Shown: one piece after another, positions 56,773-58,060 of the stretch
Layout of the letters: every line of letters begins with the position of its first letter
Position numbering within the stretch: the stretch's first letter is position 1
NCBI RefSeq assembly: GCF_009914755.1
Contig: NC_060940.1
Reading direction: 5' to 3' (one strand)
DNA from: the human T2T-CHM13v2.0 reference genome, Homo sapiens
DNA length: 64,000 nt
Program-made: the position numbers and the translations under genes
The notes under the pieces: model-generated
Told to the model about the DNA's origin: nothing
Database searches by the model: none
Seen by the model: only the letters and a program-made list of their open reading frames with translations

Positions 56773-57051
56773 GGGAAGGAAGCGGCTAACTATGGCGACC
56801 GCCACGCAGCAGTGGGTTCTGGTGGAGATGGTACAGGCGCTTTACGAGGCTCCTGCTTACCATCTTATTTTGGAAGGGATTCTCATACTCTGGATAATCA
56901 GACTTCTTTTCTCTAAGACTTACAAATTACAAGAACGATCTGATCTTACAGTCGAGGAAAAAGAAGAACTGATTGAAGAGTGGTAACCAGAACCTCTTGT
57001 TCCTCCTGTCCCAAAAGACCATCCTGCTCTCAATTACAACATCGTTTCAGG
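56773..57051 (+). pseudogene. SPTLC1: Processed pseudogene fragment of SPTLC1 (5'UTR + codons 1-87, exons 1-3); premature TAA at codon 65 (56984-56986)
   Basis: ATG 56792 gives [86 protein letters not shown], recognised as the SPTLC1 N-terminus; no introns. Confidence 0.95.
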
Positions 57052-58060
57052 ACGGAGTCTTGCTCTGTCACCAGGCTGGAGTGCAGTGGTGCGATCTCGG
57101 CTCACTGCAACCTCCACCTCCCGGGTTAAAGCCATTCTCCTGCCTCAGCCTCCCGAGTAGCTGGGACTACAGGCACAAGCCACCATGCCCACCTAATTTT
57201 TGTATTTTTAGTAGAGATGGAGTTTCACCATGTTGGCCAGAATGATCTCGATCTCCTTTTTTTTAATTAAAAAGTAAACTTTAATGTCGAAAATGCAAAC
57301 TTGGGGAGGGCAGAAAGATCACACACAAGGCTGTCACTTCACACGTGGAAGGTTGCACAGCGGCTGGGCAGAGACGCTCCTCACTTCCCAGATGGTGAGG
57401 GGGCCGGGCAGAGGCGCTCCTCACTTCCCAGACGGTGCAGGGGCTGGGCAGAGGCACTCCTCCCTTACAAAGGGTGAGGGGGCTGGGCAGAGGTGCTCCT
57501 CACTTTCCAGACAGGGCGGTGGCTGGGCAGAAGCGCTCCTCACTTCCCAGATGGGACGGTGGCTGGGCAGAGGCGCTTCTCATTTCCCAGACGGTGAGGA
57601 GGCCGGGCAGAGGCACGCCTCACTTCGCAGACGGGATGGCGGCGAGGCAGAGGCGCTCCTTACTTCCCAGACAGGGCGGCTGGGCAGAGGCGCTCCTGAC
57701 TTCCCATACCGTGAGGCGGCCGGGCAGAGGTGCTCGTCACTTCCCAGATGGGGTGGAGGCCGGGCAGAGGCGGTGCTCCTTCTCAATTCCCAGATGGTGG
57801 GCAGCTGGGTAGAGGCACTCCTCACTTCCCAGACAGGGCAGTGGCCAGGCAGAAGCACTCCTCACTTCCCAGAGTGTAAGGGGGCCGGGCAGAGGCACTC
57901 CTTGCTTCGCAGACAGGACGGCAGCCAGGCAGAGGCGCTCCTCACTTCCCAGATGGTGCAGGCAGAGATGCTCCTCAGGTCTCAATCTCTTGACCTCCTG
58001 ATCCGCCCGCCTGGGCCTCCCAAAGTGCTGGATTACAGGCGTGGGCCACCACGCCTGCCC
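57052..58060 (-). mobile_element. AluSc-like element (57052-57257 and 57978-58060) split by SVA2; tail removed by splicing
   Basis: Begins 'acggagtcttgctctgtcaccagg' with no T tract; resumes 'ggtctcaatctcttgacctc...caaagtgctggattacaggcgtg'. Confidence 0.9.
57258..57977 (-). mobile_element. SVA2 element (VNTR + unique 3' end + poly(A))
   Basis: T-run, then 'aaagtaaactttaatgtcgaaaatgcaaacttggggagggcagaaagatcacacacaaggctgtcacttcacac', then ~40-bp 'gggcagaggcgctcctcacttcccaga' repeats; degenerate TSD at 57244-57257 and 57978-57991; no CCCTCT hexamer or SINE-R. Confidence 0.85.

What the first reader, a model, noticed from the sequence alone, without database searches (positions are those of the whole stretch)
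57041..57070. Fossilised Alu exonization junction
Seen: SPTLC1 similarity ends at coding position 260 ('atcgtttcagg', 57051) and the next bases are 'acggagtcttgctc'. The T tract and 'gag' that precede this in genomic antisense Alus are missing. Established: 'tttgag|acggagt' is the commonly used 3' splice site in antisense Alu right arms. From memory, c.260 is the end of SPTLC1 exon 3. Inference: the DNA preserves a germline splicing event that diverted SPTLC1 into an Alu acceptor.
Basis: partly seen in the sequence, partly recalled or inferred. Interest (0 to 1): 0.75.

Follow-up and report, generated by a model that had tools for sequence, protein, structure and literature searches.

The report
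Mis-spliced SPTLC1 message copied nine times
A cut-short SPTLC1 message, spliced into an Alu repeat inside the gene's third intron, sits as nine full-length DNA copies across the human genome while no copy of the normal message was found, which likely records ancient germline mis-splicing that spread a primate NPAP1-like gene as a passenger.

Summary
The junction is real and exact. SPTLC1 exons 1-3 (57+108+95 coding nt) end at c.260 = window 57051. The parent gene reads TCAGG|gtaaat there, and 2.27 kb downstream has (T)20-GAG|ACGGAG at an antisense Alu. Neither refuting condition holds. Its last exon is 3.68 kb of SPTLC1 intron 3: an Alu split by a VNTR element, an antisense NPAP1/POM121-like gene, then an intronic ATTAAA. 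Nine full-length copies with this junction exist; searches with exon 4, the last exon and the distal 3' UTR found only the parent. The copies form a star, 3-4.5% apart, with no master copy. Each step is known (Alu exonization, intronic polyadenylation, L1 retrotransposition). The 9:0 bias and the passenger spread of the NPAP1-like family were not found in the papers searched. Present-day or testis expression was not testable.

The parts
56759..56772 (+). 5' target-site duplication (14 nt, 12 of 14 match the 3' copy)
   Evidence: Read directly from the flanks; the automatic TSD scan did not rank it
56774..56848 (+). SPTLC1 exon 1: 18 nt of 5' UTR, ATG at 56792
   Evidence: 97% to G000:C9:104281800-104281878
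56849..56956 (+). SPTLC1 exon 2 (108 nt), intron 1 removed exactly
56957..57051 (+). SPTLC1 exon 3 (95 nt), ends at c.260; premature TAA at 56984-56986 in this copy
57052..57256 (-). Antisense Alu, right arm plus part of the left arm (205 nt); begins at the cryptic 3' splice site
   Evidence: 94.6% to the SPTLC1 intron-3 Alu; source has (T)20-GAG; Rfam SRP-like match on minus strand below gathering score
57257..57977 (-). VNTR element (SVA2-like: 40-nt repeat array, unique 3' end, poly(A)) inserted in the Alu left arm, with a target-site duplication of about 10 nt
   Evidence: Period 40, 15.1 copies; 3' unique stretch has 40 of 40 scored matches genome-wide; TSD read; the SVA2 label for the 3' stretch is recalled
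57978..58059 (-). First 82 nt of the same Alu (left arm), displaced by the VNTR element
58449..59333 (-). NPAP1/UPF0607-like open frame (294 aa stop to stop, 276 aa from Met), antisense passenger; RefSeq NPAP1L pseudogene
   Evidence: Pfam POM121 E 7.1e-15, 55.9 bits, cut-off 27
59359..60282 (+). Exons 1-2 of predicted lncRNA LOC101927605 lie inside the retrocopy
   Evidence: Annotation given with the finding; GT donors at 59480 and 60282 and AG acceptor at 60056 seen
60659..60664 (+). Intronic polyadenylation signal ATTAAA; T/GT-rich stretch follows in the parent
60675..60686 (+). Poly(A) remnant
   Evidence: parent continues with non-A sequence here
60687..60700 (+). 3' target-site duplication

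Best explanation
The locus is a processed copy of SPTLC1 exons 1-3 joined at a GT-AG junction to an antisense Alu and 3.68 kb of intron 3, and it likely arose when L1 machinery reverse-transcribed a truncated germline SPTLC1 message, as it likely did nine separate times from the parent gene. Shown: exact exon joins, source acceptor, poly(A), TSDs, unrelated flanks, nine copies, no canonical copy in three searches. Inferred: a 6.7-kb NPAP1-like block carrying the Alu, the VNTR element and the ATTAAA was duplicated into intron 3 earlier and supplied both a strong acceptor and a poly(A) site; the VNTR insertion in the middle of the Alu left arm would have weakened that arm's repression of the right-arm acceptor; the truncated message was either abundant in germ cells or a favoured L1 substrate during one burst about 12-20 million years ago (calibration recalled). 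The copies are most likely non-functional as SPTLC1.
For: Exon ends and GT/AG sites. Same junction in 9 of 9 copies. All nine start 15 to about 42 nt upstream of the ATG position and end 12-21 nt after the same ATTAAA, at three different cleavage points that each follow the parent's genomic sequence. Adjacent TSDs in 7 of 9. Flanks of the nine share only four short 77-86% matches. Star tree, 0 of 8 inner branches well supported. No polarised non-CpG site is derived in all nine copies but ancestral in parent and duplicate. The acceptor has the best pyrimidine tract (19 of 19) among AGs in the 5.9 kb from the donor to the poly(A) site. The block matches an older duplicate at C9:100.01 Mb at 88-92%, with sharp ends at about 104273428 and 104266740. 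PMC2330237 section 14 (read): a 350-bp insert in the centre of the left arm raised right-arm inclusion.
Against: No RNA data were available, so the isoform's existence today, tissue and level are untested. No TSD was found for the C6:23.7 Mb copy and only a doubtful one (49 nt away) for C2; the window's own TSD has 2 mismatches in 14. All nine copies share A at c.96 where the parent has C: one site, which fits a later parent change but also a shared intermediate. Two polarised sites are derived in the parent and all copies but not in the C9:94.58 Mb duplicate, while four others group some copies with both, so the order of events is not clean. Direction of the block duplication is inferred, with no outgroup genome. 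PMC2330237 tested a cassette exon in a minigene, not a terminal exon. Older or very short canonical retrocopies could escape the DNA search.
Confidence: 0.9

Rival explanations
1. One rare mis-spliced message retroposed once, and that retrocopy (a master) then spawned the others, like a small composite retrotransposon family.
For: 9 of 9 copies share one junction; all carry A at c.96 against the parent's C; all have C where the parent has T beside the poly(A) signal; the copy contains Alu and VNTR sequence as SVA-type elements do.
Against: No non-CpG site unites the nine against parent plus duplicate in about 2.4 kb; several derived sites join subsets of copies with the parent; two copies extend further into the parent's genomic sequence at both ends than the others; the C beside the signal is ancestral (in 12 of 12 other sequences); the VNTR is antisense to the transcript.
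Confidence: 0.06
2. An ordinary SPTLC1 pseudogene was later interrupted by independent Alu, VNTR and NPAP1L insertions, or by a DNA deletion, that happened to fall at the exon 3 end.
For: RefSeq annotates NPAP1L separately on the minus strand ending in its own poly(A) at 57257.
Against: Whole 3.68 kb is colinear with parent intron 3; one TSD encloses everything; exon 4 onward exists nowhere but the parent; same join at nine unlinked loci; only 1 nt of microhomology and a GT-AG fit.
Confidence: 0.01
3. The source was not today's SPTLC1 but a duplicate of its 5' end, of which the 10.6-kb block at C9:94.577-94.588 Mb is a remnant; a duplicate lacking exon 4 onward could only make the truncated message, which would explain the 9:0 bias.
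For: The duplicate holds exon 3, the same Alu acceptor (T22) and the poly(A) site, is about as far from the parent as the copies are (1.85% non-CpG), and its Alu is 96.6% to the window's against 94.6% for the parent's.
Against: It has no exons 1-2 in this assembly (one genomic match each; block starts in intron 2); over 3 kb 9 of 9 copies are closer to the parent than to the duplicate.
Confidence: 0.08

Closest known systems
Exonization of antisense Alu right arms (PMC2330237, passages and section 14 read; terminal Alu exons PMC4666398, abstract and outline only)
   Same: Antisense Alu, poly(T) tract plus AG as 3' splice site, right arm.
   Different: No Alu donor is used; the exon runs 3.68 kb to an intronic poly(A) site, truncating the gene after 87 codons; the left arm is naturally split by a VNTR element.
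L1-made processed pseudogenes, including ones that preserve rare splice forms (L1 mechanism: PMC5753468 passage; 'genomic fossils' idea recalled, paper not held)
   Same: Introns removed, poly(A), TSD, dispersed.
   Different: Here every full-length copy found (9 of 9) comes from the cryptic form and none from the canonical message.
SVA-type composites built by splicing: MAST2-SVA_F1, PVA, FVA, LAVA (PMC5753468 and PMC4432496, passages)
   Same: Host exons joined to Alu/VNTR sequence and spread by L1 from a source in an intron.
   Different: VNTR is antisense, there is no hexamer head, and the copies appear to come from the parent gene each time, not from each other.
NPAP1 / UPF0607 / NPAP1L POM121-related retrogene family (PMC3942032, parts 1-3 of 4 of the text and Table S2 read)
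   Same: The antisense passenger matches Pfam POM121 and is labelled NPAP1L by RefSeq; the paper reports UPF0607 duplicating in a subset of primates.
   Different: The parts read give no mechanism for that expansion and do not link it to SPTLC1; which accession corresponds to which copy was not tested.

Membership tests
Processed pseudogene (L1 retrocopy) | Introns removed at exact splice sites | tested here: met
   Three joins match GT/AG sites in the parent
Processed pseudogene (L1 retrocopy) | Non-templated poly(A) after a signal | tested here: met
   ATTAAA then A run where parent continues otherwise, 9 of 9
Processed pseudogene (L1 retrocopy) | Target-site duplication | tested here: met
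   12 of 14 nt in the window; adjacent TSDs in 7 of 9 copies
Processed pseudogene (L1 retrocopy) | Independent insertion sites | tested here: met
   Flanks unrelated apart from four short repeat-like matches
Processed pseudogene (L1 retrocopy) | Empty orthologous site in outgroup | not testable with these tools
   No other primate genome held
Alu exonization (antisense right arm) | Poly(T) tract plus AG in source, used as acceptor from an upstream GT donor | tested here: met
Alu exonization (antisense right arm) | Short cassette exon closed by a donor inside the Alu | tested here: not met
   Exon is terminal, 3677 nt; so it is the terminal-exon type
Alu exonization (antisense right arm) | Junction present in RNA | not testable with these tools
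   No junction database; SPTLC1 absent from the searched supplements of PMC5115870, PMC3629564, PMC4666398
SVA/LAVA/PVA/FVA composite retrotransposon | Hexamer head and Alu-like region followed by sense VNTR | tested here: not met
   5' end is SPTLC1 UTR; no hexamer array; VNTR element lies on the minus strand
SVA/LAVA/PVA/FVA composite retrotransposon | Copies descend from copies (subfamily structure) | tested here: not met
   Star tree; no site uniting the nine against the parent locus in the intronic part
SVA2 (embedded element) | 39-40 nt VNTR units, unique 3' end, poly(A), TSD | tested here: met
   unit size from PMC4432496 passage
SVA2 (embedded element) | Match to the Repbase SVA2 consensus | not testable with these tools
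   No repeat library; label recalled
NPAP1/UPF0607 retrogene family | Intronless POM121-related frame | tested here: met
   Pfam PF15229 above cut-off; DNA 67-77% to a C15:22.41 Mb locus taken as NPAP1 from recall
NPAP1/UPF0607 retrogene family | Intact, expressed protein | tested here: inconclusive
   276 aa here against 416 and 407 aa in two other copies; expression untested

The most novel reading that the evidence does not exclude
A duplicated NPAP1-like block broke SPTLC1 in the ape germline: the Alu-VNTR acceptor and intronic poly(A) site made the truncated message dominant or an unusually good L1 substrate, producing a burst of full-length 4-kb copies that is the actual engine of the hominoid UPF0607/NPAP1-like expansion, and a later single C-to-T change in the parent, which made a consensus U1 site 3 nt after the poly(A) signal, switched it off.
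Probability: 0.25. Interest if true: 0.72.

Novelty: new variant of a known kind. Interest (0 to 1): 0.52.

Why it matters
It turns two sets of separately named pseudogenes (SPTLC1P names appear only in gene lists; NPAP1-like copies) into one family with one cause, and shows a gene family spreading antisense inside another gene's cryptic last exon. The 9:0 bias gives a paired natural test of what makes an mRNA a good L1 substrate (same promoter, same 5' end, different 3' end), and the split Alu is a natural version of a published minigene experiment. If the isoform persists it diverts transcripts of an essential, disease-linked gene (disease link recalled), and nine 96-99% copies of exons 1-3 can confuse read mapping and PCR there.

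Tried and rejected
Canonical SPTLC1 retrocopies: none in 3 of 3 searches; middle exons 5-14 were not searched. 5'-truncated copies of the same age: none; the 3' end finds the same nine plus parent and duplicate at 97% or more. Rfam: only sub-threshold Alu-derived matches. Pfam: 1 of 4 frames matched; the 88-aa frame at 60094 and the 302-aa VNTR frame matched nothing. The automatic TSD scan missed the window's TSD; it was read by eye. A nearer antisense Alu 991 nt from the donor (T10) and two earlier ATTAAA in the exon (positions 215, 3441) are not used by any copy. Literature: SPTLC1+NPAP1+retrotranspos 0 papers; NPAP1+SPTLC1 1 gene-list paper (12); SPTLC1+retrotranspos+SVA+Alu 1 abstract book (22); SPTLC1+Alu+exonization 0 (48); SPTLC1+pseudogene+intron 3, 2 listed, one read by passages and irrelevant; SPTLC1P1-5 11 listings, none on origin by title (21); UPF0607 3 (27). 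Three relevant papers (two Genome Research 2009 on SVA exon capture, one PNAS 2006 on pseudogenes as transcript fossils) were not held, nor are most subscription journals; unseen supplements (one file each of PMC3942032 and PMC4666398, eight of PMC5199112) could mention SPTLC1.

Full report
Observation. The window reads ...TTTCAGG|ACGGAG... at 57051/57052. The ATG is at 56792 and the first 64 codons match solved human SPTLC1 (E 1.1e-34), so 57051 is c.260. A search of the own genome with exons 1-3 found 13 matches: nine contiguous copies, three separate exons at C9:104.275-104.282 Mb, and one lone exon 3 at C9:94.578 Mb. Reading the parent gave exon lengths of 57 coding, 108 and 95 nt, each bounded by AG and GT; exon 3 ends TCAGG|GTAAAT. 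2.27 kb further lies (T)20-GAG|ACGGAG, the tail of an antisense Alu.

Anatomy. The match to the parent intron continues for 3677 nt to C9:104269280. In order: 205 nt of Alu (57052-57256); a minus-strand element with poly(A), a unique 3' stretch and 15 copies of a 40-nt unit (57257-57977) flanked by a roughly 10-nt duplication; the remaining 82 nt of the same Alu (57978-58059); a minus-strand frame matching Pfam POM121 (58449-59333), which RefSeq calls NPAP1L; then ATTAAA at 60659, an A run, and a 14-nt direct repeat (12 matches) of the sequence just before exon 1. The element's 3' stretch is a dispersed repeat (40 of 40 scored matches among 203 candidates) and its unit size is that reported for SVA2 (PMC4432496, passages); the SVA2 name itself is recalled. 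So NPAP1L is not a separate insertion here but a passenger inside one retrocopy.

A family. The junction probe matched end to end at nine loci on C16, C10, C1, C8, C13, C6 (two), C9 and C2, 95-97% to the window. All nine have the same join (seven of them aligned), begin 15 to about 42 nt before the ATG position, and end after the same ATTAAA, seven at one cleavage point and two 4 and 9 nt later, following the parent's sequence. Lengths are 3.3-4.5 kb, differing mainly in the VNTR. TSDs abut the ends in 7 of 9; one is doubtful and one absent. Flanks are unrelated. The 3' end finds no further copy at 97% or more. Exon 4, the last exon with proximal UTR, and the distal UTR each found only the parent. 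If the canonical message were at least half of the pool and equally mobile, nine of nine would have a chance of 0.002 or less (0.5 to the ninth, my arithmetic), so either the cryptic form dominated in the germline or it was the better substrate. PMC5199112 (abstract and passages) reports that Alus in 3' UTRs are over-represented in pseudogene parents, 15.6% for antisense against 12.8% for sense: a modest effect, not enough alone.

History. Over 3 kb the copies differ by 3.0-4.6% from each other and 3.0-4.1% from the parent; the tree is a star with 0 of 8 inner branches well supported. Non-CpG distance to the parent averages 2.1%. With recalled ape divergences this is roughly 12-20 million years, in one burst. 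Polarised with two older copies, 50 sites are derived in all 11 young sequences and none in the nine copies alone; four sites group subsets of copies with parent and duplicate, which fits repeated copying from an evolving parent. Against this, all nine share A at c.96 where the parent has C, and two sites separate the C9:94.58 Mb duplicate from everything else. The NPAP1-like block in intron 3 has sharp ends, about 104273428 and 104266740, and an older duplicate at C9:100.01 Mb (6.1% non-CpG) with the same split Alu, so the VNTR insertion predates that duplication. That the block moved into SPTLC1, and not out, is inferred from more distant family members elsewhere sharing the same end.

Mechanism. 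Shown: donor, acceptor, signal, cleavage and insertion marks. Inferred: why this acceptor. It has the best pyrimidine tract in the 5.9 kb scanned, ahead of a nearer Alu with ten T. PMC2330237 (passages and section 14) found most Alu exons in antisense right arms, and that a 350-bp insert in the centre of the left arm raised inclusion; the VNTR element sits 82 nt into the left arm here. The spliced parent model encodes 122 aa (87 of SPTLC1, 35 from the Alu) with the stop in the last exon and a 3.57-kb 3' UTR; by the established junction rule it would escape junction-triggered decay. Three copies keep all 122 codons; the window's stops at codon 65. The parent alone has T four bases after ATTAAA, giving AAG|GTAAGA, 8 of 9 to the donor consensus; 12 of 12 other sequences have C. 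U1 binding near a poly(A) signal is known to block it (recalled), so this could have ended the burst, but it is 1 of 24 parent-private changes in 2678 nt, seen in one genome, and noticed after the fact.

Comparison and novelty. It is a member of the processed pseudogenes and a terminal-exon case of Alu exonization. It works somewhat like splice-built SVA composites but fails two of their defining features. PMC3942032 (parts 1-3 of 4, Table S2) describes the NPAP1/UPF0607 family and its duplication in some primates without a mechanism or SPTLC1 in what I read. Ten literature searches found no description of this family, but three likely papers were not held and gene databases could not be consulted, so a transcript model or a brief prior mention may exist.

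Verdict. Observation confirmed, interpretation supported and extended. The single junction is ordinary; the nine-to-none family with an antisense passenger is a new variant of known processes. Interest 0.52.

Noticed in passing
G000:C8:36596830-36599391 (L050, L055, L052): Older (8% non-CpG) 5'-truncated retrocopy that starts inside the VNTR, ends at the same poly(A) site and has an 11-nt TSD; about equally far from the SPTLC1 block and the C9:100.01 Mb duplicate, so its source is open. The poly(A) site was in use well before the main burst.
   Followed up: partly
G000:C9:94576865-94587802 (L033, L034): 10.6-kb segmental duplicate of SPTLC1 from intron 2 through exon 3 into intron 3, about 95% identical, without exons 1-2.
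   Followed up: partly
G000:C9:100009568-100016739 (L049, L051, L053, L054): Older duplicate of the NPAP1-like block with the same split Alu and a second Alu inserted in the VNTR element's 3' stretch: three nested insertions.
   Followed up: partly
G000:C10:51.544, 80.730 and 88.261 Mb: Three further partial copies of the block (87-92%) that include sequence upstream of the Alu, so probably DNA duplications.
   Followed up: no
window 59359-60282: The first two exons of predicted lncRNA LOC101927605 and the 5' end of NPAP1L start head to head in a 64% G+C stretch inside the retrocopy (CpG ratio only 0.36): the retrocopy may have delivered a two-way promoter.
   Followed up: partly
window 58150-58191 and 58511-58552: 42-nt inverted repeat, 95% complementary, within the NPAP1-like region; present in the paralogues too.
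   Followed up: no
L037 (G000:C8:27.287 Mb): This copy lacks nearly the whole VNTR array (3.3 kb long); in five other copies, parent and duplicate the array spans 633-1236 nt.
   Followed up: no
window 56774-57051: The SPTLC1-derived part has no row in the RefSeq table given with the finding; only the NPAP1L passenger is annotated.
   Followed up: no
window 60739-60793 and 61462-61493: A two-copy 28-nt tandem repeat just past the 3' TSD and an isolated 32-nt A run.
   Followed up: no
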